DNA from: Squalus acanthias
Taxonomy: Eukaryota
Length of the DNA: 64,000 nt
Reading direction: 5' to 3'
NCBI GenBank assembly: GCA_030390025.1
Contig: CM059432.1
Span: 30,444,001 to 30,508,000 of the forward strand
The notes beneath the pieces are model-generated. The model was not told the origin of the DNA and made no database searches. It saw only the letters and a list, made by a program, of their open reading frames with translations. The translations under genes were made by a program, and so were the position numbers. Shown in pieces: positions 6,385-63,636 of the stretch (positions are counted from its first letter, which is position 1; every line of letters starts with the position of its first letter).

Positions 6385-6758
6385 CATAGAATCTAGGAGC
6401 AGGAGTAGGCCATTCGGCCCGTCGAGCCTGCTCCACCATTCAATACGATCATGGCTGATCATCCAAAATCCAGTACCCTGTCCCTGCTTTAATCCCCACA
6501 GTACATATATCCCACCCTACCCCCGTAACCCCACGTATTTAATTCCCCCTAACACTAAGGGTCAATTTATCATAGCCAAATCAACCTAACCCGCACATTT
6601 TTGGACTGTGGGAGGAAACCGGAGCACCCGGAGGAAACCCTCGCAGACACGGGGAGAATGTGCAAACTCCACACAGACAGTCACCCGAGGTCAGATTCGA
6701 ACCCAGGTCCCTGGCGCTGTGAGGCACCAGTGCTAACCACTATGCCACCGTGTTGCCC
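6385..6758 (-). mobile_element. V-SINE (HE1-type shark SINE) with CR1-derived 3' tail
   Basis: Minus strand has tRNA head (TGGCATAGTGGTTAGCAC...GGGTTCGAATC) and V-domain TGTGTGGAGTTTGCACATTCTCCCCGTGTCTGCG..GGTTTCCTCCGGGTGCTCCGGTTTCCTCCCACAGTCC; tail matches the CR1 3' ends in this window; AAGAAA on both flanks (possible TSD). Confidence 0.92.
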
Positions 6759-17221: not shown

Positions 17222-17605
17222 AAGAGAAAGAACTTGCAATTATATAGCACCTTTCACGGACAGCCTAAAGTGTTTTACAGCCAATTGAGTACTTTTGAAG
17301 TGTAGTTTGTAATGTAGGAAATGCGGCATTCAATTTGCACACAGTAAAGTTCCACAAACAGCAATGTGATAATGATCAGATAACCTTTTAGTTGTGTTGG
17401 TTGAGGGATAAATATTGACCAGGACATCAGGAAGAACTCCCCTGCTCTACTTCAAATACTGCCATGGAATCTTTTACGTTCACCTGAGAGGTGCAGACGG
17501 GGCCTCAGTTTAACATCTCATCTGAAAGACTGCACCTCTGACAGTGCAGCACTTCCTCAGTACTGCACCGAAGTGTCAGCCTGGATTATGTACTTAAATC
17601 TCTAT
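17222..17605 (-). mobile_element. DeuSINE (SacSINE1-like)
   Basis: Deu-domain reverse complement GAACTCCCCTGCTCT...GCCATGGAATCTTTTACGTTCACCTGAGAG; L2-type tail AAAGAACTTGCA.TTATATAGCACC. Confidence 0.88.
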
Positions 17606-29032: not shown

Positions 29033-31028
29033 ATGGGCGCCGCTTATGCTGCCTTAGATTGGACCTCAGATAAGGAACAACATGAGCAGCAGCAGCACTA
29101 GTATCAGCAGACTGCTGGTCACAGACCTGTAGCTGCATACCAGAGAGGGGACCAGCAGAGAGGGGACTGGCAGAGAGGTGCAGCTCACAGGAGGCACTAC
29201 CCACGACATATCCTTGACATGTATGAACAGCAGTCTCTCAGGAAGCTCAGAATGTCACATCAGGTGGTGGCAGACATCTGCAGCCTCCTAAAAGAAGACC
29301 TGCTCTTTGCTGGACCTGGTGGCCACACGTTACCAGTGGCTGTCAAAGTCACCACCGCCCTCAACATTTTTGCCTCTGGTTCCTTCCAGGAATCTAACGC
29401 AGACATATGCCGGATCACCCAGTCAGCAACCCACAAATGCATAAGACAGGTGACTGATGGCTTGTTTTCCGGGACTGGCAATTATTGCCTGCGATGATGC
29501 CAGTCAGAATGAGAAGGTGCTCAGGTTCATGGCTCTGGCTGACTTCCCACAGGTGCAGGGTGTCATTGATGCAAGCACTTGACAATCCGGGCACCCAAGA
29601 ACAACCAGGAATATTTGTCAACCGCAAGGGCTTCCACTCCATCAATGTGCAGCTGGTGTGTGACCACAAAAAAGATTTTTATGCAGGTGTGCGCAAGATT
29701 CCCAGGCAGCTGCCATAATGCTTTCATCCTACGACAGTTCAAGAGAGCACACCCTTTGCCACCAGCTATATGGCGACCAGCTCAGGAGGAGGAAGAGCAG
29801 AAGGAGGAGGAGGAAGAGGAGGAGAGGGAAGAGAAGGAGGAAGAAGAGGAAGGGTAGAGGCAACTGTAAAGTTTCCAAAATTTGCAGATCCCCAAAAATC
29901 TAAGGAAAAAGGACTTTGGAACTACCCCAGAGTGATAACAATGCATTTGGGCCTCACATAAGGAATTTAAGACCAAAACCAAGCTTTGGCATTTTAAAAG
30001 GCTGGAATTCAAGCCCCAGCAAACATTAACATTTGGACAATAGGCCCTGGGAGAAGGCAGCCCCACCCAAAACACAGAACCCATTAAAGAGACGCATAAA
30101 GATAGGAATGCTAGGCCCAGCAAGAAATCCAAAACATGAGGACAATGCAAACTCCGATTAAACAACAGATCAACAGGACGCAAGCCATTTGACACTCAGT
30201 AAAAAGCCATTACTGTTGACGAGGTCTTACAATGACCAGGTTTTGATTTGGTTTAGCATAATTGAAGGCCCATCAAGCAGTTACAACAGTTCAGTAAGAA
30301 GAGAGTTCAGAACATTTTAACACCAAGTTAAACCCATCAAAACTTAACAAGCCCGCAAAACCAAGACAATGGAATGAACAGGCCTCAACTGAAACCAAAT
30401 CACTTCAGCACAAAACCATTTTTAGTAAGGGGTTCTGGGAGCGAAAAGAACAAAGGAGCTGAACACGTATAATTGGGGGGCCTAATTCCCCAAGAGGCCC
30501 TCTCTCCGGACTCTCTGACAACGCTGGCACAGCTCCCTCTCAGCTCTGTTCCAGAAGCAGCACGTTCCAGGAAGACACTCGATGACCAGACCACCATCAA
30601 CTTACCTGGCTGGATTTCACACTGTTAAAACCCCTGTTTGGTGAGCATTATCCCTGATCTCCTGAAACCGAAACCTAGCTAGATAGTGCGATTTTTGGGA
30701 GGGATAAGGGTTTTTGTATATTGTCATTCTCCCTCACCTGAACCGTGTATTCCCCAACCTTTTTAAGTGCGAAGTGTGTTTTAAGTTTGTTACCTTTTTC
30801 TTTTAATAAAAGTCAAAATTCTTTCATCGGAACCTATTGTCTACTGCATCTTTATTCACAACCCCTAAATAAGTCCAAGGTCTGAACCTGGGGTGTGGGA
30901 GTGATTCGAACCGCTCACTGAGTCAGGGGTAAGGCTGACCCCTACCACCACCACCCCCTACACAACCCAGACAGCCCCTTTCTGGCCGGGCTGTCTGTGA
31001 CCGATTCATCCAGCTGCAATACCGGTAA
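29033..31028 (+). pseudogene. Harbinger transposase with an internal deletion, split by the LTR
   Basis: LPVAVKVTTALNIFASGSFQ, NRKGFHSINVQLVCDH, FPGSCHNAFIL, then a jump to RAHPLPP and the acidic tail (second Asp and Glu region deleted). Confidence 0.85.
29865..30962 (+). mobile_element. solo LTR (1098 bp)
   Basis: TGTA...TACA termini; perfect 4-bp TSD CAAC (29861-64 / 30963-66) that restores the Harbinger sequence GAGGCAACCCAGACAG; TATAAT at 30468; AATAAA at 30805. Confidence 0.9.
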
Positions 31029-33956
31029 ATGCAATCTAAATTCCCCATTCACAAACAGTCCCATACCTTATCTTCCCTCTGTTACTGACCATCAAAGCAT
31101 CCTCTTGGCCACAATGCAAAATTAAAGTAAAAATCAAAATAAACATTCCAAACCAAATTTATAAATCAAACCATGCCACATTGCATACAAATGTCAACTA
31201 ATCACACTTGTGCATTCCCGCAGTGCCTGTTTTCCGTGCGCCTTTACCTGTCCCAGTGATCTTACGCAGTGCTACCCCAGTGGCTGCAGCATGGCTGGTG
31301 GGAGGCTGCTGACTTTCAGTGGGGGAGCCTGCAGATGGCCTTGCATGACGACCTCAAGCAGCTCTGGGCCTAGAAGGCCCGGCTTCGGTCTGCACCATCT
31401 CGACATGGGCAGCAGCAGTCTAGACTGGCTGGCTGACAGGCAACAGCAAGGGCACGAGCGGAGTGGCAGGGGTCGGAGGACGAATGCTGTCATCCTGAGA
31501 GAGGACAGCGGGTTTGTGCTCCACGGAGCCACTGCCACTCCCCCAGGACAGCACCGCAGCAATCCTAGTAATCTGTTGGAGGACAGATTGCTGGACTGCT
31601 GTGACACTCTGCAAGCCCCGTTGATCACTGGATCACTGGTAACCGCAAGCACGATGGTAGCAGTCTGAGTTTCAACTGCAACATCCAGACGTTGGATGGC
31701 TTCTACCTATGCTGCAGTGGAAGCTGAGACATCAGCCATCAGACGCTGCATCATGTTTGGGTCCACAAGTGTGCTAATGGAGTTGGCCACCACTTCCATG
31801 CTGGAAAGAATGGGCTCCAAGCTCTGTGCAAAGCCATGTGCCAAGTTGGTGCTGGACTCCTCCATGATCCTTGACATTGCACACGGGCTTTCTGGCAGGC
31901 CTGCCAATGCACCTTTGTGCTAGGTATGACTTCAGCCAGTGGAGAGTTTTCTCCCTGATTCCCATGGACTTCAATATTACTGGGGCTCCTTGATGCCACA
32001 TTTGGTTAGAAGCTACCTTGATGTCAAGGACAGTCACGTTCACCTCACCTCTAGAATTCAGTTCTTTTGTCCATGTTTGGACTAAGGCTGTACTGAGGTT
32101 TGGAGCCGAGTGGTCCTGGCGGAACCCAAACTGAACATCGGTGAGCAGGTTACTGGTGAGTAAGAGCACTGTCGACGACATCTTCCATCACTTCGCTGAT
32201 GATTGAGAGTAGACTGATGGGGCGGTAATTGGTCGGATTGGATTTGTCCTGCTTTTTGTGGACAGGACATACCTGGGCAGTTTTCCACCTTGTCGGGTAG
32301 ATGCCAGTGTTGTAGCTGTACTGGAACAGCTTGGCTAGAGGCGCGGCTAGTTCTGGAGCACAAGTCTTCAGCACGACAGCCGGGATGTTGTTGGGGCCCA
32401 TAGCCTTTGGTCTACCCAGTATGCTCAGCCGTTTCTTGATATCACGTGGAGTGAATCAAATTGGCTGAAGACTGGTTTCTGTGATGGTGGGAACCTCAGG
32501 AGGAGGCCGATATGGATCATCCACTCGGCACTTCTGGTTGAAGATGGTTGCAAATGCTTCAGCCTTGTCTTTTTCAATCACGTGCTGGGCTCCGACATCA
32601 TTGAGGATGGGGATGTTCATGGAGCCTCCTCCTCCCGTTAGTTGTTCAATTGTCCACCACCATTCATGACTGGATGTGACAGGACTGCAAACCTTTGATC
32701 TGATCCGTTGATTGTGGGATCGCTTAGCTCTGTCTATAGCATGCTGCTTCCGCTGTTTAGCATGCATGTAGTTCTGTGTTGAAGCTTCCCCACGTTGGCA
32801 CCTCATTTTTTTTTAGGTACACCTGGTGCTGCTCCTGGCATGCTCTTCTGTACTCCTCATTGAATCAGGGTTGGTCCCCTAGCTTGATTGTAATGGTAGA
32901 GTGAGGGATATGCCGGGCCATGAGGTTACAGATTGTGGTGGAAATAAATTCTGCAGCTGCTGATGGCCCACAGCGCCTCATGGATGCTCAGTTTTGAGTT
33001 GCTAGATCTGTTCTGAATCTATCCCATTTAGCACGGTGGTCGTGCCACACAACACGATGGAGGGTGTCCATAGTGTGAAGACGGGACTTTGTCTCCACAA
33101 GGACTGTGCGCTGGTCACTGCTACCAACGCTGTCATGGACAGATGCATCTGTGACAGGTAGATTGGTGAGGACGAGGACAAGTAGGTTTTTCCCTTGTGT
33201 TGGCTCTCTCACCACCTGCCGCAGGCCTAGTCTGGCAGCTATGTCCTTCAGGACTTGGCCAGTAGTGGTGGTACTGAGCCACTCTTGGTGATGGACATTG
33301 AAGTCCCCCATCCAGAGTACATTCTGTGCCCTTGCTACCCTCTGTGCTTCTTCCAAGTGGTGTTCAACATGGAGGAGTACTGACTCATCTGCTGAGGGAG
33401 GGCAGTAGGTGGTAATCAGCAGGAGGTTTCCTTGCCCATGCTTGACCTGAAGCCATAAGAATTCATGGGGTCTAGAGTCAACGTTGAAGACTCCCAGGGC
33501 CACTCCCTCCCGACTGTGTACCACGTGCCGCCACCTCTGGTGGGTCTGTCCTGCCGATGTGTCAGGACATACCCAGGAATGGTGATGGAGGAGTCTGGGA
33601 TCTTGGCTGAAAGGTATGACTCTGTGAGTATGACTATGTCAGGCTGCTGCTTGACTAGTCTGTGGGACAGCTCTCCCAATTTTGGCACAAGTCCCCAGAT
33701 GTTCGTGAGGAGGACTTTGCAGGGTCGACTGGGCTGGGTGTGCCTTTGTCGTGTCCGAAGCCGGTGCCTACGTCGATGACAGGTGGTCCTTCTGGTTTTA
33801 TTCTTCTTATTGTTTCCCGTAGCGGTTGTGTACAACTGAGTGACATGCTAGGTCATTTCAGAGAGCATGATGCAGAGATGCCGGTGTTGGACTGGGGTGG
33901 ACAAAAATGAGAAGTCGCACAACACCAGGTTATAGTCCAACAGTTTTATTTAAAAT

Positions 33957-33991
33957 TACGAGCTTTCGGAACGCTGCTCCTTCTTCAGGTA
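33957..33991 (-). ncRNA. minimal type I hammerhead ribozyme motif
   Basis: UAC-CUGAAGA-A-GGAGC-AGC-GUUCC-GAAA-GC-UC-GUA. Confidence 0.7.
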
Positions 33992-34153
33992 AAATACAGC
34001 ATTTGACACGTTGGACCCCCTGTGACCCACCTCATTGTCTTAGCTGTACTCTGATGTGTCTTTGATGTAATGCCTCCCTAACAGATTGTATCTCTGCAGA
34101 CAAATTGTTCTCTGTGTATATATACTGTGTAATAGATTCCCTCACTGTACCTG

Positions 34154-34188
34154 TACCTGAAGAAGGAGCGGAGCTCCGAAAGCTCGTA
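34154..34188 (+). ncRNA. minimal type I hammerhead ribozyme motif
   Basis: UAC-CUGAAGA-A-GGAGC-GGA-GCUCC-GAAA-GC-UC-GUA: catalytic core, stem II, stem I (UAC/GUA) and palindromic AGCU stem III. Confidence 0.75.
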
Positions 34189-34207
34189 ATTTTAAATAAA
34201 ACTGTTG

Positions 34208-35099
34208 GGGGGAAAAATTAGGTCGCGCCCCATTTGGGGCGCAAATATCGTCTGGACGCAAATATTAGCGCCTGGCGCTAATTATCGGCACTGACTGGAA
34301 ACTTCACTTTTACCGCCCCGGGAGGTGAGTGGAGCGCTAAATCAGGCGCTGCACACCTGTCTTAAGGCGCAAAGGCCAAGGAGTGAGGCGCTAACTCAGA
34401 GCGCTGGCGAAGCTCATGTAATGTCAGTCAGCAATGGAACACACACACAATGGCACGGGCCAGTTCTTAAAGGGGATGGTTAATCTTGCTTTCCATCCAC
34501 ATCCTGTTCATTGCAGCCTTGAATCTCGGCCTGGAGAGACTTGCACATCAAATGTGCTGGAAAGAACAATGGAGAGTACCAGGCAAAGAGCTCAGAGTGC
34601 AGCTCCCACAGTCTCTGCTAAATCGATACAAGGAATGGCAAATCAAAATGAACCTGCAAAGTGCTGCTCAGTACCCAAAACTCCTTCACACAATGTTGAA
34701 TCTCTCCAGAAGTCTCTCCCTCTCTCTCTCAGAATGCGTAGTTCAAAAATGCCACCAACAATAAAAGACAGGAAGAGGCCCCCTTTAAATAGCGCCCCCC
34801 CCAGCCCCACAGCGATTGATAGCGTTCCAGTCTTCTGGTCGTTGAATGCGCCAGGCGGTAAGGCAGGGGGCGCCACTCAATTTCCGCTCCGGTCGCCACA
34901 AGGGCGTTGCACCATGGAATGACGTCACAATCTGCGCGCGCAGGTGGTCGCAGCGGTAAAGTTTAGCGCCACCGCACAATCTCTAGTTAAGTTCCCGAGC
35001 GGCGCAAACATCGCTGCGCCCGGGCGTTAGCGGCTTTGCGCCCCATTAGCGCCCTCTTAAGGCGCTAACGGGAGGCGCAACCAACTGAATTTTTCCCCC
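34208..35099. mobile_element. Harbinger-type MITE (892 bp), copy 1
   Basis: TIR GGGGGAAAAATT / AATTTTTCCCCC; perfect TTG TSD; near identical to 49704-50596. Confidence 0.95.
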
Positions 35100-35400
35100 T
35101 TGGACTATAACCTGGTGTTGTGCGACTTCTCATTTCAGAGAGCAGTTAAGAGTCAACCACATTGCTGTGGGTCTGGAGTCACATTTAGGCCAGACCAGGT
35201 AAGGATGGCAGATTTCCTTCCCTAAAGGGACATTAGTGAACCAGATGGGTTTTTACGACAATCCGATAGTTTCATGGTCACCATTACTAAAACTAGCTTT
35301 TGTTCCAGATTTATTTACTTAACTGAATTTAAATTCCCCAGCTGCCATCATGGGATTTGAACTCACGTATCTGGATCATAAGAACATAAGAACATAAGAA

Positions 35401-36290
35401 TTTTTTTTAAAATTCATTTAAAAGATGTGGGCATCGTTGGCAAGGCCAGCATTTATTACCCATCCCTAATTGCCCTTGAGAAAGTGGTGGTGAGAAGCCT
35501 TCTTGAACCGCTGCAGTCCGTGTGGTGAAGGTACTCCCACAGTGCTGTTAGGTAGGGAGTTCCAGGATTTTGACCCAGTGACGATGAAGGATCGGCGATA
35601 TACTTCTAAGTCAGGATGGTGTGTGACTTGAAGGGGAACTTGGAGGTGGTGGTGTTCCCATGCGCCTGCTGCCCTTGTCCTTCTAGGTGGAAGAGGTCGC
35701 GGGTTTCGGAGGTGCTACTGAAGAAGCCTTGGCAAGTTGTTGCAGTGCATCTTGTAGATGGTACACACTGCAGCCACGGTACACCGGTGGTGGAGGGAGT
35801 GAATGTTTAAGGTGGTGGATGGGGTGTCAATCAAGCGGGCTGCTTTGTCCTGGATGGTGTTGAACTTTATGAGTGTTGTTGGAGCTGCACTCATCTAGGA
35901 ATGTGGAGAGTATTCCATCACACTCCTGACTTGTGCCTTGTAGATGGTGGAAAGGTTTTGGGGAGTCAGGAGGTGAGACACTCGCCGCAGAATAACCAGC
36001 CTCTGACCTGCTCTTGTAGCCACAATAGTTATGTGGCTGGTCCAGTTAAGTTTCTGGTCAATGGTGACCCTCAGGATGTTGATGCTGGGGGATTCAGCGA
36101 TGGTACTGCCACTGAAAGTCAAGGGGCGGTGGTTAGACTCTCTCTTATTGGAGATAGTTATTGCCTGGCACTTGTGTGGTGCGAATGTTACTTGCCACTT
36201 ATCAGCCCAAGTCTGAATGTTGTCCAGGTCTTGCTGCATGTGGGCAAAGGCTGGTTCATTATCTGGGGAGTTGTGAATGGATCTGAACAC
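35401..36290 (-). mobile_element. LINE family B 3' fragment
   Basis: Homologous to 4272-5150 (WADKWQVTFAPHKCQ, YKAQVRSVMEYS, same 3' tail). Confidence 0.92.
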
Positions 36291-38831: not shown

Positions 38832-39396
38832 AGTATCTCAGATTAGCACATACGTATATAGTGGAAAAGCTAAGTCAGCATATAGTTACAAACATCCAGT
38901 AGGTTACAAGTCATCGTCTTTCTTCTTGCTTCGGCATGCCTTGTAGATAATCTAGAAATCTGCTGAATATAACTGAGGAAAAATTAGTTTGCAGAAAAAA
39001 ATCTGGAATATTTGTAACATTCTTAATGCTAACAAAGCTAAGGACTACAAAAGGGTTATCACTTCAGAGAGTGACTGTGAAAAGGAGCGAAGCTAGCTAA
39101 AGCACCGAAGCTGCACAAAAGAAGCAGCTTCACGTATATTTAAAGAGACAGAATATGAAAATCCTGGAATAGGTTGTGTCTAAAGTCGGAAAGAGACATT
39201 TTGTTTCTTCACCTTATTCTATTGAAGAAAACTTGTCCTTTTTCTCTCATTTCAATGTTGTCTTTCAATCTCTGATGTTTGCTACTTAACCCAGTTCTAT
39301 ACTGACTAAAAATCTCAGGCTTGAATTGGCCCTCCTGTTATGCCACTTTATTTACTCAGGGGATGTGGGTTGTGTACGGTAGCAAATGGTAGCATA

Positions 39397-39881
39397 GGGC
39401 TATGGTAGCATTGTGGTTATGCTACTGGACTAGATAATCCAGAGGCCTGGACGAATGATTTGGAGATATGAGTGCAAATCCCACCATGGCAGCTGGGGGA
39501 ATTTAAATTCAGTTAATTAAATAAATCTGGAAATAAAAAGCTAGTATCAGTAATGGTAACCATGAAACTACTGGATTGTTGTAAAAACCCATCTGGTTCA
39601 CTAATGTCCTTTAGGGAAGGAAATCTGCCATCTTTACCTGGTCTGGCCTATATGTGACTCCAGATCCACAATGTTGACTGTTAACTGGCCTCTGAAATGG
39701 CAAGCCATCTGGTTGTACCAAACCGCTATGACAAAGTCAGCACTGTGGGAATACCTTCAGCACACGGACTACAGCGGTTCAAGAAGGCGGCTCACCACCA
39801 CCTTCTCAAGGGCAATTAAGGATGGGCAATAAATGCTGGCCTTGCCAGGGATGCCCACATCCCTTGAGCGAATAAATAAAA
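39397..39881 (+). mobile_element. tRNA-derived SINE made of the LINE family B 5' head and 3' tail
   Basis: A box TAGCATTGTGG, anticodon-like stem CTGGA..TCCAG, B-box-like GAGTGCAAATCCC; body matches 35379-35135 and 33867-33819; tail from ~39738 matches 4420-4290. Confidence 0.92.
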
Positions 39882-49214: not shown

Positions 49215-49703
49215 AGATTGGCTGCAGCAGAAGGTCAGTCTTGCCTCTGAGTCAGAAGGAATTGGGTTCAAGTTCCACTCCAGAGACGTGAGCACCTAAT
49301 GACACCTCAGTGCTGTACTGAGGGAGTGTTGCATTGTCGGAGGTGCCGTCTTTCAGATGAGAGGTTAAAGCGAAGCTACGTCTGTCTCTTGTGTGAACAG
49401 TAAAGGTCCCATAACACTATTCAAAGAAGAGCAGGGGAGTTCTCCATATTTATCCCTCAACCAACATCACGAAAACTGATTATCTGGTCATATCACATTG
49501 CTGTTTGTGGGACCTTGCTCTTCACAAATTGGATGCCGCATTTCCTACATTATAACAATGTCTAACTTCAAAATTTATCTGTAAAGCACTTTGGGATGTC
49601 CCGAGATTATGAAAGACGCTATATCAATAAAAGTTATTTCTTGGTGTAGTTTGGTTTGCCTTCTGAGCTGGACGTAACTGGTGCTATATAAATACAAGTC
49701 TTT
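49215..49703 (+). mobile_element. DeuSINE (SacSINE1-like)
   Basis: GGGTTCAAGTTCCACTCCAGAGAC head; GAAGAGCAGGGGAGTTCTCC core; GCTATATAAATACAAGTCTTT tail. Confidence 0.88.
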
Positions 49704-50596
49704 GGGGGAAAAATTAGGTCGCGCCCCATTTGGGGCGCAAATATCGTCTGGACGCAAATATTAGCGCCTGGCGCTAATTATCGGCACTGACTGGAAACTT
49801 CACTTTTACCGCCCCGGGAGGTGAGTGGAGCGCTAAATCAGGCGCTGCACACCTGTCTTAAGGCGCAAAGGCCAAGGAGTGAGGCGCTACCTCAGAGCGC
49901 TGGCGAAGCTCATGTAATGTCAGTCAGCAATGGAACACACACACAATGGCACGGGCCAGTTCTTAAAGGGGATGGTTAATCTTGCTTTCCATCCACATCC
50001 TGTTCATTGCAGCCTTGAATCTCGGCCTGGAGAGACTTGCACATCAAATGTGCTGGAAAGAACAATGGAGAGTACCAGGCAAAGAGCTCAGAGTGCAGCT
50101 CCCACAGTCTCTGCTAAATCGATACAAGGAATGGCAAATCAAAATGAACCTGCAAAGTGCTGCTCAGTACCCAAAACTCCTTCACACAACGTTGAATCTG
50201 TCCAGAAGTCTCTCCCTCTCTCTCTCAGAATGCGTAGTTCAAAAATGCCACCAACAATAAAAGACAGGAAGAGGCCCCCTTTAAATAGCGCCCCCCCCAG
50301 CCCCACAGCGATTGATAGCGTTCCAGTCTTCTGGTCGTTGGATGCACCAGGCGGTAAGGCAGGGGGCGCCACTCAATTTCCGCTCCGGGGCGCCACAAGG
50401 GCGTTGCACCATGGAATGACGTCACAATCTGCGCGCGCAGGTGGTCGCAGCGGTAAAGTTTAGCGCCGCCGCACAATCTCTAGTTAAGTTCCCGAGCGGC
50501 GCAAACATCGCTGCGCCCGGGCGTTAGCGGCTTTGCGCCCCATTAGCGCCCTCTTAAGACGCTAACGGGAGGCGCAACCAAGTGAATTTTTACCCC
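49704..50596. mobile_element. Harbinger-type MITE (893 bp), copy 2
   Basis: Near identical to 34208-35099; flanks TTT/TAT. Confidence 0.95.
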
Positions 50597-51679
50597 TATG
50601 TTTCTTTAGCTTGGTTACAGCTTGCACTACTCAGCACTAACTGCTGTAACAACGTAAATAGCACCTGATAAGGTCCAAAGTACAAAGTAGCTGACAGATA
50701 ACTCTTCACCTCCGCTGTAGTACAACCACCACCACCCCTTACGACTGTACCTCACTTATCACCATTTATTTTTCAGCTTTTTGACCACACCTACCAAAAA
50801 AATATTCTAAAATATCCAAAATCATCACACACTTCTGCAAAGGAATAGCTAAAGCTTGAGAAATGAATTCATTTTGTACATAGTTGTCGACATTTTAGCG
50901 TCAAATCTATTTGGTTAATATTTCAGTTATCTCTTCTGAACATCACGGGCGTTGCAAATGGAGAGGATAAAACTGCCCGACGCGTAGAGCGGGCAAATCG
51001 CGTTAGCACCAACGCTGTAAGTAGTGTTTACTAGAAATAAATTTAAAATAAAAGAAATAGCAGTGAGCGAATGGGGTCAGAGGAAAACAGGACAAGGAAA
51101 TATAAGCCTGAAATCTACTGTAGCTGATATTAGTGAATGAGATCTTAATGTGGTCTTGCTATTTAAAGCAAGCGTTAGACTATTTTTAAAATAAATGGGT
51201 CAGAATAGCAGGCAAAGGAATGACATACAAAAGCATTGTGTTCACCAACAGACATTTCCGGGCTGGACTGTTTACATTTAGGTTTAGTTAATGTAGCTTT
51301 GGCATGAATTCTGTAGCTTCGGGTTAATATTACAGTAATAAAGCTCACGCTGACACCTGGGCCTCGTGCGCTAAAGGTTACTAATTTGGCGATACCTGTT
51401 TGCGTCTGCAAGAAAGCTGCACATTAGGGTAAATTGTATGATTGGTGTAACACACGTGCATATCAGGAATTGGGCTGCAACTGTCATTAATGGATAGAAA
51501 ACTGGATCCATGACTTTGACATGTGAATTCCCAATATGTGTTGCCATCAAATGAAGCTCTGAAGCGCTAAATTGGAATATTTACTCTTCTGCCTGTTTTG
51601 CTTCGCATGCCTGGTTGAGTTTCAGTTTGGAATTAAAGAGATTCCAGCAAACTTTCTATGGCTGTGTCTCCTTTTGTGT

Positions 51680-60961: not shown

Positions 60962-61421
60962 TAAAGAAAGAACTTGCATTTATATAGCACCTTTCATGAT
61001 CTCAGGATGTCCCAAAGCGCTTTACAGCCAGTGAAGTGCTTTTGAAGTGTAGTCATTGTTGTAATGTAGGAAACACAGCAGCCAATTTGCTCACAGCAAG
61101 CTCCCACAAACAGCAATGAACTAAATGACCAGATAATCTGTTTAGTGATGTTGGTTGAGAGATAAATATTGGCCAGAACACCAGGGAGAACTCCCCTGCT
61201 TTTCTTCGAAATAGTGCCATGGGATCTTTTACATCCACCTAAGAGGGCAGATGGAGCCTTGGTTTATCGTCTCATCCGAAAGGTGGCGCCTCCGACAATG
61301 CAGCACTCTCTCAGTACTGCACTGGAGTATCAGCCTAGATTTTGCGCTCAAGTGTCTGGAGTGGGACTTGAACTGAAAACTGTCTGACGCAGAGGCGAGT
61401 GTGCTACCTAGCACTGAGCCA
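60962..61421 (-). mobile_element. DeuSINE (SacSINE1-like), near full length
   Basis: Tail, Deu core and tRNA head all present. Confidence 0.92.
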
Positions 61422-62250: not shown

Positions 62251-63414
62251 TTAGGCTCGTTAAACCCAGACAGTTCTTTGCTGGGAAGTTAAGGCAAAGG
62301 GTTACGGATTTATCTGGTGACCTTGATAAATATTCTTGTCATGGTACCAATCCGAGTGTTCTTAAAATCAAGGGCTGTAGTCACGTCTGCAGAGCTTCCA
62401 CTCTCAGTAATAATAATCCCAGCGCTCAGAAATAATTGCGCTTGATATTAGCTTCCAAAAGTGTTATTTGAATGGCTTCATGCCTCAATTAAAATAGCAG
62501 ACAATGTAATGTCATGCAAACATGTTTAGCATTTGGATGCTAACATTGCACATAGTAATTTTTTGACTACATAATAAGAAGTGAATAATGAATCATCTCC
62601 AAAATCTTCACATTCAGTTGTAGTCTATTGCCACTTACTAAATGTCATGATCAAATCCCAAGAACAAAATAAAAAACAAACTGGCAGTGGTAGGGGGTGA
62701 GGAGGCTTGATAGATGTTTAAGATTTTCCTGGAGAATTTGGATCTAGGACAGTCAGGGAACAGGATTCAAGGCAATAGGATACAGTTTAAAGTTAAAGGG
62801 ATATAATTTTGTATTGGGTGTGAGCGCAAAATGGGCGATAGCGAATCGGCAGTCTGTTACACGCTCCGCCTGATTTTTGTTTCCATTGAAGTCAATTCAT
62901 TATCGCTCTTTTTTCCCTAAGTTGTCAAAAGGAAAATATGAAATTTATGCAACATTTTTTTAGTAAGAGAGTGATAGAGTTGCAGAACAGGTTATTAGCG
63001 AGAGTGCAGGAACAGAAAACCATGGTAGGTTTTATAAACAGACCAGGTGAATTTCAATTAGGAAAAAAGATACTGGGCTATTTGTTCTGGAATCAGTAAT
63101 GAAACTGATGGGACCTTTAGAAGGGTAGGCCAGATAGGTTGATGATCTACTCTTGCCCAAATAATTACAAGTTCCAATCTATTTGGAAGTGAATAGAAGG
63201 CAGTAATGAACCATAAATTAATGGGATATTGTCTGGTTTTATTTTCACATACCTTTTACCACCTTTAACTTCTATATATAAACCACCCAAACCCTTCGAT
63301 TAAATTCCAGCCTGTAACTCATTCCCAGGTGTCTATTGTTCTATATATAATCCATCCATCTCTGTTATATATAATCTTTCTTTCTTTAATATAGTCTTTC
63401 TTTCTTTATATAAA

Positions 63415-63636
63415 AATGAGAAGTCGCACAACACCAGGTTATAGTCCAACAGATTTATTTAATTTTACAAGCTTTCGAAGCAGTTCGCTCCTTCGTCAGG
63501 TAAGTTAGCAATGAGAGAATCTCCCAGAATTCACAATTTAAACCCAGACAAAATCTATTCACATTATTCCCTGCAACAAAGAGCACAGCCAAGACAATGA
63601 GATGTGTCCCAGGGGGTCCAACGTGTCAAACCACCT
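63415..63636 (-). mobile_element. Penelope-like terminal repeat (33868 family)
   Basis: GAGAAGTCGCACAACACCAGGTTATAGTCCAACAG and GGGGGTCCAACGTGTCAAA are shared with 33910-34020. Confidence 0.85.
63465..63503 (-). ncRNA. minimal type I hammerhead ribozyme motif
   Basis: UUAC-CUGACGA-A-GGAGC-GAACU-GCUUC-GAAA-GC-UU-GUAA. Confidence 0.7.

What the first reader, a model, noticed from the sequence alone, without database searches (positions are those of the whole stretch)
39397..39881. SINE that equals the LINE's own 5' head joined to its own 3' tail
Seen: the SINE follows the family B 5' region up to AACCGCTA (39721-28; LINE 33827-33820), then after ~10 nt switches to the family B 3' tail (CAGCACTGTGGGA..., matching 4420-4290 and 35548-35425). 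Established: SINE-LINE pairs usually share only the 3' tail, as the V-SINE/CR1 and DeuSINE/L2 pairs in this window do. Inference: either the SINE is an internal deletion of a tRNA-headed LINE, or the LINE captured its SINE's head; both bear on how SINE bodies originate.
Basis: partly seen in the sequence, partly recalled or inferred. Interest (0 to 1): 0.72.

Follow-up and report, generated by a model that had tools for sequence, protein, structure and literature searches.

The report
SINE cut from tRNA-headed shark LINE
This short repeat is the front and back ends of a 3.3-kb shark jumping gene (Zenon) with the coding middle removed, and because that jumping gene itself begins with a tRNA-like promoter piece, one deletion is enough to make what looks like a complete SINE.

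Summary
Observation confirmed. The 485-nt element is a tRNA-like head and body, 9 nt, then the last 26 codons, 3' UTR and A-tail of 'family B'. Family B is the elasmobranch Zenon LINE (CR1 group, no ORF1). The head is a family trait: 7 of 7 shark and ray Zenon consensus rows in a 2026 supplement begin with it, and 0 of 3 hagfish and coelacanth rows do. The SINE begins where those rows begin and carries two head motifs found only in the 3 dogfish-labelled rows. It is as close to the LINE at the head (92.7%) as at the tail (92-93%). Contigs show at least three other head-to-tail junctions. Best reading: an old head gain by the LINE, then repeated internal deletions; this copy is one such product. 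Zenon deletion derivatives are known (Persaeus) but lack a tRNA head. No match was found to the V, Deu/Nin, Meta, UCON3, CORE or Ceph motifs tested. Still open: whether this exact junction amplified as a family, and whether RNA polymerase III transcribes the full LINE (0 TTTT in 2.8 kb, P=0.087).

The parts
39397..39491 (+). tRNA-like head with decayed A and B boxes and a doubled anticodon-arm segment; same start as the published Zenon consensus
   Evidence: Rfam tRNA 18.9 bits, E 0.37 at 39399-39491; start and sequence compared by eye with SquAca_Zenon-1; box consensus recalled
39492..39728 (+). Body = rest of the Zenon 5' non-coding region
   Evidence: 216 of 233 columns identical to 35372-35131; window motifs found in 7 of 7 elasmobranch Zenon rows
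39729..39737 (+). Junction letters; resemble the next letters of the Zenon 5' region in one consensus row, with a 2-nt CA overlap with the tail
   Evidence: Motif acaaagtca lies right after the head in CarCar_Zenon-1 only, 1 of 7 rows; an alternative weak alignment to the LINE 3' region exists
39738..39818 (+). Last 26 codons and stop codon of the Zenon ORF
   Evidence: Translation STVGIPSAHGLQRFKKAAHHHLLKGN*, matching the ORF ends at 35466 and 4340
39819..39881 (+). Zenon 3' UTR and A-rich tail
   Evidence: Alignment A3; the tail folds better than shuffles in 2 of 3 full-tail copies (z -2.1, -3.3, +0.4)
39347..39369 (-). Inverted 23-nt stub of the element's own 3' end, just upstream of its 5' end
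   Evidence: 87% complementary to 39854-39876; 0 of 1056 control windows score as well
39375..39395 (+). Two partial repeats of the element's first ~10 nt
   Evidence: Direct repeats D7 and D8
35131..35372 (-). Head and body of the Zenon copy, first piece (5' 58-67 nt missing)
33863..35130 (.). Later nested insertions splitting the LINE head, flanked by a 10-nt duplication; includes a 908-nt element at 34193-35100
   Evidence: near-zero depth over it in run X13, where 414 contigs end loose at 35131 with letters like 33852-33825
33820..33862 (-). Head and body of the Zenon copy, second piece
   Evidence: 32 of 37 columns identical to SINE 39690-39728
31915..33819 (-). Zenon: remaining 5' region with a short upstream ORF, endonuclease and first part of reverse transcriptase; frameshifted, 3'-truncated; no ORF1
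   Evidence: Pfam PF14529 E 9.5e-10 and RVT_1 E 9e-5; collinear with aa 12-625 of the 948-aa relative P0155
35411..36289 (-). Zenon 3' piece (end of RT, C-terminus, 3' UTR, A-tail)
   Evidence: aa 677-945 of P0155
4284..5281 (-). Second Zenon 3' piece; overlaps the end of the 5' piece and so ties both ends to one family
   Evidence: 34 of 37 identical to the end of the 33819-31915 piece; aa 666-945 of P0155

Best explanation
The element is a short internally deleted derivative of the elasmobranch Zenon LINE, a ~3.3-kb, ORF1-less, A-tailed CR1-group retrotransposon whose own 5' end is a tRNA-derived head plus a ~240-nt non-coding body. Shown: the head and body are the LINE family's 5' end, the tail is the LINE's ORF end and 3' UTR, and several different head-to-tail junctions exist. 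Inferred: (1) the Zenon lineage gained the head once, before sharks and rays split; (2) about 2.8 kb were later lost from individual copies or RNAs several times, probably at short microhomologies by template jumping of the reverse transcriptase or by DNA repair; (3) a product keeps an internal polymerase III promoter and the 3' end that the Zenon protein recognises, so it can be copied in trans as a SINE with no head-capture step. The 'SINE body' here is therefore simply LINE 5' UTR.
For: 7 of 7 elasmobranch Zenon consensus rows (5 species labels, 2886-3314 nt) start with this head and run on into the LINE 5' region; 0 of 3 non-elasmobranch rows do (first 400 letters visible). Whale shark gene models join head-derived residues to the endonuclease: 2 of 7 tested clearly (P0004, P0007; 0 of 300 shuffles), 1 weakly (P0003; 3 of 300), 4 not. 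The SINE carries two head motifs found only in the 3 SquAca rows of the 7, so it tracks the local LINE lineage. Identity is the same at both ends: head 92.7%, tail 91.9% and 92.9%, LINE tail to LINE tail 92.7%. The tail holds 26 in-frame codons of the ORF. Other junctions in contigs keep about 86, 69 and 55-60 nt of tail against 126 here; the shortest is in 4 of 4 runs, and a joint in that same zone has depth 6947 in run X9 against about 10 on unique flanks. Zenon is reported to give deletion derivatives repeatedly at microhomologies in Lepidoptera (PMC6740152).
Against: No tree of SINE and LINE heads could be built; direction rests on motifs and identities. The junction letters match the CarCar row, not the SquAca rows or the window's LINE copy. 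The read joints rest on 1-7 contigs each, only 15 of 5342 joints were shown, and none of the shown rows is the head-to-5' UTR joint or this copy's own junction. No target-site duplication was found around the SINE. Absence of the head in hagfish and coelacanth rows may reflect incomplete 5' consensus ends, and those Zenons are not sister to the shark ones.
Confidence: 0.8

Rival explanations
1. The SINE is an independent, older family that only borrowed the Zenon tail. The LINE took its head from this SINE by template switching, and later head exchange keeps the two alike.
For: A tRNA head on a LINE had to come from a tRNA or a SINE. Template switching and module exchange are the accepted routes for SINE change (PMC4824008; PMC5499810). 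Other Zenons show no such head.
Against: The SINE has the lineage-restricted head motifs, equal divergence at both ends, coding sequence in its tail and several junctions. An old independent SINE predicts one fixed junction and a more diverged head.
Confidence: 0.12
2. This locus is a one-off: a full-length Zenon copy that lost its middle in the genome after insertion and never moved as a short RNA. This is a sub-case of the best explanation that removes the label 'SINE family' from this junction, so its probability overlaps with it.
For: There is only one such copy in the window. Its junction is not among the shown joints. No target-site duplication was found.
Against: The layout could not list this junction, because contigs that carry it lie unbroken on the SINE. 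At least one other junction looks amplified (depth 6947 in X9; depth is not a copy count).
Confidence: 0.3
3. The head-LINE contact at 33820 is a chance nested insertion of a 5'-truncated LINE into a SINE copy.
For: It is the only such junction in the window, in a heavily nested region.
Against: The same continuity is in 7 of 7 published consensus rows and in whale shark gene models. A random break would fall within 10 nt of the tail start only about 4% of the time.
Confidence: 0.02

Closest known systems
Elasmobranch Zenon LINE (CarCar, HypSab, RhiTyp, ScyCan, SquAca Zenon consensus rows; Stuart et al. 2026, PMC13343379)
   Same: Family B is this family: window motifs from head, body and endonuclease start occur in these rows; no ORF1; A-tail; about 3.3 kb.
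   Different: The paper's main text has 0 occurrences of 'tRNA' and 'polymerase' and 1 of a word starting 'SINE': the head and the short derivatives are not described there.
Persaeus SIDE of lepidopteran Zenon (Wang et al. 2019, PMC6740152)
   Same: 5' UTR joined to the ORF end, 3' UTR and poly-A of Zenon; several independent origins; variable break points at microhomologies.
   Different: Persaeus has no tRNA, 5S or 7S homology and no polymerase III promoter, so it is not a SINE. Here the deletion product starts with a tRNA-like head.
Bipartite SINEs such as Bov-tA, AfroSINE, SINE2-1_EC, SINE2-1_ACar (Kojima 2018, PMC5786205)
   Same: The SINE body derives from LINE 5' sequence and the tail from the LINE 3' end.
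   Different: There the head is added after the deletion and is not part of the LINE, and only RTE and Vingi contributed. Here the head belongs to the autonomous LINE, which is CR1-group.
RTE-1_DAn and relatives (mentioned in Kojima 2018)
   Same: A LINE that holds a tRNA-like sequence.
   Different: Different clade; mentioned only as a source of unwanted hits, with no position, function or derived SINE given in the text read.
ZenoSINE and Fritillar of heliconiine butterflies (PMC6685494); SacSINE1 and CmiSINE of cartilaginous fishes (PMC5499810)
   Same: SINEs with a Zenon-like tail; tRNA-headed SINEs in cartilaginous fishes.
   Different: ZenoSINE shares only the tail and has a head of unknown origin. 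SacSINE1 and CmiSINE have Deu or CORE bodies and L2 tails, not found here.

Membership tests
Zenon (partner LINE, family B) | CR1-group ORF with AP endonuclease and reverse transcriptase | tested here: met
   Pfam PF14529 E 9.5e-10; RVT_1 E 9e-5 and 1e-3 on fragments, below the curated cut-off; collinear with 940-980-aa single-ORF relatives
Zenon (partner LINE, family B) | No ORF1 | tested here: met
   About 100 nt separate the end of the shared head (33820) from the endonuclease start (33718); only a 65-aa overlapping frame with no Pfam hit
Zenon (partner LINE, family B) | Poly-A tail, stated to be unique among CR1-group elements | tested here: met
   3 of 3 tails in the window end in A-rich runs; poly-A loose ends at 39862-39867 and 35424 in hundreds of contigs; criterion
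Zenon (partner LINE, family B) | Sequence match to, or RT placement with, named Zenon elements | tested here: met
   Window motifs found in the 7 elasmobranch Zenon rows. 5' 400 letters only; no RT tree with named references was built
SIDE (short internally deleted element) | Consists only of the 5' end and the 3' end of the partner LINE | tested here: met
   All but 9 of 485 nt assigned to Zenon 5' or 3' sequence; the first 67 nt by eye against consensus rows only
SIDE (short internally deleted element) | Amplified as a family with a shared junction | tested here: inconclusive
   Other junctions recur across runs; this copy's junction could not be counted
SINE (SINEBase definition, PMC3531059) | Short (<700 bp) and non-autonomous, with a LINE-derived 3' end | tested here: met
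   485 nt; tail 92-93% identical to LINE tails; definition
SINE (SINEBase definition, PMC3531059) | tRNA-derived head with A and B boxes | tested here: inconclusive
   Rfam tRNA E 0.37, below cut-off; ARAGORN negative; one mismatch in each box in this copy, intact boxes by eye in 6 of 7 consensus rows (box consensus recalled)
SINE (SINEBase definition, PMC3531059) | Transcribed by RNA polymerase III from the internal promoter | not testable with these tools
   Only contigs were available
V-SINE | V domain after the head | tested here: not met
   A 20-nt motif from a V-SINE primer hits 6607-6626 only; the SINE body does not hit that copy
DeuSINE / Nin (SacSINE1 type) | Deu or Nin domain | tested here: not met
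   A 16-nt motif hits 17466 and 61221 only (near chance level as a count); the body does not hit those repeats and shows no likeness by eye to the Deu alignment
MetaSINE | 66-nt Meta domain right after the head | tested here: not met
   0 hits for a 17-nt consensus motif at 3 mismatches; by-eye comparison
UCON3-domain SINEs | UCON3 domain after the head | tested here: not met
   0 hits for a 16-nt motif; alignment rows
CORE / Ceph SINEs | CORE domain, or the RTE 5' UTR half of Ceph | tested here: inconclusive
   No hit of the 11-nt CORE/Ceph motif in the body and none of the 20-nt RTE motif; a gapped look-alike near 39605-39627 was seen by eye and not tested further; full domains and the SINEBase alpha and beta domains were not compared

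The most novel reading that the evidence does not exclude
Shark and ray Zenon is an autonomous, protein-coding LINE transcribed by RNA polymerase III from a tRNA-derived internal promoter kept since sharks and rays split. It gives birth to SINE families in one step, again and again, by internal deletion, so that a SINE's head, body and tail all come from one LINE. Hints: A and B boxes look intact in 6 of 7 consensus rows while the sequence between them differs; no TTTT in the visible 400 nt of 7 of 7 rows against TTTT in 3 of 3 other Zenon rows (by eye); no TTTT on the sense strand of 2.8 kb in the window, whereas 31 of 31 metagenomic relatives have 4 or more. The window count alone is not significant (P=0.087), and the family's low T content explains part of it.
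Probability: 0.35. Interest if true: 0.85.

Novelty: new variant of a known kind. Interest (0 to 1): 0.62.

Why it matters
The origin of SINE bodies is an open question. The published model needs two steps, deletion of a LINE and then addition of a small-RNA head, and was documented only for RTE and Vingi. Here the LINE already carries the head, so one deletion gives a formally complete SINE, and the body's source is still present in many copies across sharks and rays. That makes the model testable with existing assemblies. It also raises the question of whether a 3.3-kb coding retrotransposon RNA can be made by polymerase III and still be translated. The parts have precedents and the consensus sequences are already published, which keeps this short of a new category.

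Tried and rejected
No whole genome is held for this window, so copies could not be counted or aligned. Exact-pattern scans for the body found nothing in metagenome or viral contigs, and the endonuclease peptide found no relative in viral contigs. The 65-aa frame across the head junction found no homologue. No RNA holder is listed for the stretch; run X16 is only guessed to be RNA, so its joined forms say nothing on transcription. Search for a similar head on distant relatives: the SINE head has no nhmmer hit in 80 of 80 metagenomic loci (best E 3.5); no A/B-box pair upstream in 31 of 31 loci with long matches; no Rfam tRNA in 16 loci or upstream of the closest one, L001. These tests are weak: the box patterns also miss this SINE's decayed boxes, a head scoring like this one would exceed E 10 in 65 kb, many flanks are short, and most loci are only 25-40% identical. 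Relaxed ARAGORN calls on those loci were not confirmed by Rfam and were set aside. The ESM Atlas gave only unnamed clusters. Folding of head and body is no better than shuffles. A chance nested insertion was rejected. Deu, V, Meta and UCON3 membership was rejected on short motifs only. Five window motifs in full-text search gave 7 unrelated papers.

Full report
Observation. The element at 39397-39881 (+) has three matches elsewhere in the window: 39464-39699 to 35372-35131 (E 4e-82), and 39738-39863 to 4421-4296 and 35547-35424 (E 1e-49, 2e-47). The pieces 35372-35131 and 33862-33820 are one head split by a 1.27-kb nested insertion with a 10-nt duplication. In run X13, which has near-zero depth over the insertion, 414 contigs end loose at 35131 with letters that continue like the second piece. 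From 33819 the sequence runs into an endonuclease and reverse transcriptase. The window's LINE head lacks its first 58-67 nt and is the only head-to-LINE junction in the window.

Anatomy. The first 95 nt are tRNA-like but decayed (Rfam 18.9 bits, E 0.37; ARAGORN negative). The tail is mostly coding: the last 26 codons and stop of the LINE ORF, then about 45 nt of 3' UTR and an A-rich end. The three LINE pieces belong to one family: they map in order on a 948-aa single-ORF relative (aa 12-625, 677-945 and 666-945), and two of them overlap at 34 of 37 bases. No target-site duplication was found. An inverted 23-nt stub of the element's own 3' end and two partial repeats of its start lie just upstream.

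What the LINE is. Stuart et al. 2026 (PMC13343379; I saw the abstract, section 13, passages, and supplement rows cut at 400 letters) report Zenon elements in sharks and rays, without ORF1 and with a poly-A tail. Supplementary Table 2 lists 10 Zenon rows. All 7 elasmobranch rows (CarCar, HypSab, RhiTyp, ScyCan, SquAca x3) begin with this head and body and run on into the region found at 33819 onward; the 2 hagfish rows and the 1 coelacanth row do not, in the part visible. The motif cactaatgtcc occurs 7 times in the searchable file, all in these rows. My reading of the species abbreviations (white shark, stingray, whale shark, catshark, spiny dogfish) is recalled. Independently, whale shark gene models place head-derived residues before the endonuclease: clearly in 2 of 7 tested, weakly in 1, not in 4. 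The head is therefore the family's own 5' end.

Direction. By eye the SINE starts at the same point as the SquAca rows. It holds two motifs present in 3 of 7 rows, all SquAca. Its identity to the window's LINE is 92.7% at the head and 91.9% and 92.9% at the tail, the same as two LINE tails to each other, 92.7%. Contigs of four runs laid at 80% likeness show other head-to-tail joints: 35142/39778 (3 of 4 runs), 35134/39795 (2 of 4), 35134/39809 (4 of 4) and 35146/35481 (X9, depth 6947). The last two are probably one zone at a shared TCT-x-AA. These keep about 86, 69 and 55-60 nt of tail, against 126 here. Against this reading: each joint rests on 1-7 contigs; only 15 of 5342 joints and 12 of 630 between-letter rows were shown; this copy's junction could not be counted; and its 9 junction letters match the CarCar row rather than the SquAca rows and can also be aligned weakly to the LINE 3' region. 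No head tree was possible, as no genome is held.

Mechanism. Most likely the Zenon lineage gained a tRNA-derived head once, before sharks and rays split (inference from 7 of 7 against 0 of 3 rows; the outgroup is poor, since vertebrate Zenons are not monophyletic). Internal deletion then recurred. A product keeps the promoter and the 3' recognition region and can move in trans (established for SINE-LINE pairs; not tested here). Whether the full LINE is a polymerase III transcript is open. The idea of counting T-runs came from earlier notes of this scan. The sense strand has 0 TTTT in 2813 non-overlapping nt against 2.1 expected from dinucleotide shuffles (P=0.087). The neighbouring CR1 copy has 7 in 1606 nt, and 31 of 31 metagenomic relatives have 4 or more (2.2-17 per kb), but they are richer in T. 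The window's LINE head itself has one TTTT.

Comparison with known elements. Zenon is known to give deletion derivatives: Persaeus in Lepidoptera, with several origins and microhomologies, but without tRNA homology or a polymerase III promoter (PMC6740152; part 1 of 5 and passages). [quoted passage not shown] ZenoSINEs share only the tail (PMC6685494, passages). The whale shark preprint names CR1-Zenon-like LINEs and has 0 occurrences of 'tRNA' (10.1101/443036, passages; supplements closed). The body did not match V, Deu/Nin, Meta or UCON3 motifs taken from PMC4824008 (parts 2-3 of 6, supplement part 1 and passages) and PMC7245038 (passages, section 7, supplement passages), although the V and Deu motifs did hit other places in the window. 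PMC5499810 (parts 1-2 of 6; no supplement held) covers other chondrichthyan SINEs. PMC3531059 (passages) gave the SINE definition.

Novelty. Ten library searches found no paper describing a tRNA-headed Zenon or SINEs cut from it. The library lacks most subscription journals, Repbase Reports and Dfam notes, and unseen supplements may bear on this. Eight earlier notes of this scan report head-bearing copies elsewhere in this genome. They are unchecked and are not counted as support; the word Zenon occurs in none of the genome's notes. Verdict: a real feature and a new variant of a known kind. Interest 0.62.

Noticed in passing
window 39347-39395: An inverted 23-nt stub of the element's own 3' end, closer to this copy than to the LINE tails, plus two partial repeats of its first ~10 nt sit right before the 5' end. 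Possibly priming on both nicked strands during insertion.
   Followed up: partly
window 36289-35425 and 35372-31915 (-): The LINE's 3' piece lies upstream of its 5' piece, and the two are nearly complementary (aa 677-945 and 12-625 of a relative): either two copies or one rearranged copy.
   Followed up: partly
window 37895-35378 (-): A CR1 copy is joined in frame at 36290 to the Zenon 3' piece, which is followed by a CR1-type (TTCTTATG)3 tail before the head; looks like an insertion with loss of the CR1's 3' part.
   Followed up: partly
window 34193-35100 and 49689-50597: A 908-nt element with short terminal inverted repeats, 98.3% identical between two copies, nested in a palindromic element related to 63412-63630; near-zero depth in run X13.
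   Followed up: no
window 33852-33655 (-): A short frame overlaps the endonuclease start, and similar peptides begin some whale shark gene models (P0003, P0005, P0008); may matter for how an ORF1-less RNA is translated.
   Followed up: partly
proteins P0002, P0009, P0011, P0024: Whale shark gene models fuse host exons to pieces of this LINE's endonuclease; probably annotation chimeras.
   Followed up: no
window 39605-39627: A short gapped likeness, by eye, to the conserved RTE 5' UTR / Ceph motif; the ungapped test was negative.
   Followed up: partly
window 39828-39833 and 39871-39881: The tail holds AATAAA about 40 nt before the A-rich end; some mammalian polymerase III SINEs are polyadenylated through such a signal (PMC8466645, search listing only).
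   Followed up: no
window 29500-31914 and 1361-2276: The LINE's truncated 3' end abuts another repeated coding element with a second copy near 1361-2276; it resembles a Harbinger-type transposon by recall only.
   Followed up: no
window 6607-6626, 17466-17481, 61221-61236: V-SINE and Deu-SINE motifs mark other SINE copies in the window, unrelated to this body.
   Followed up: partly
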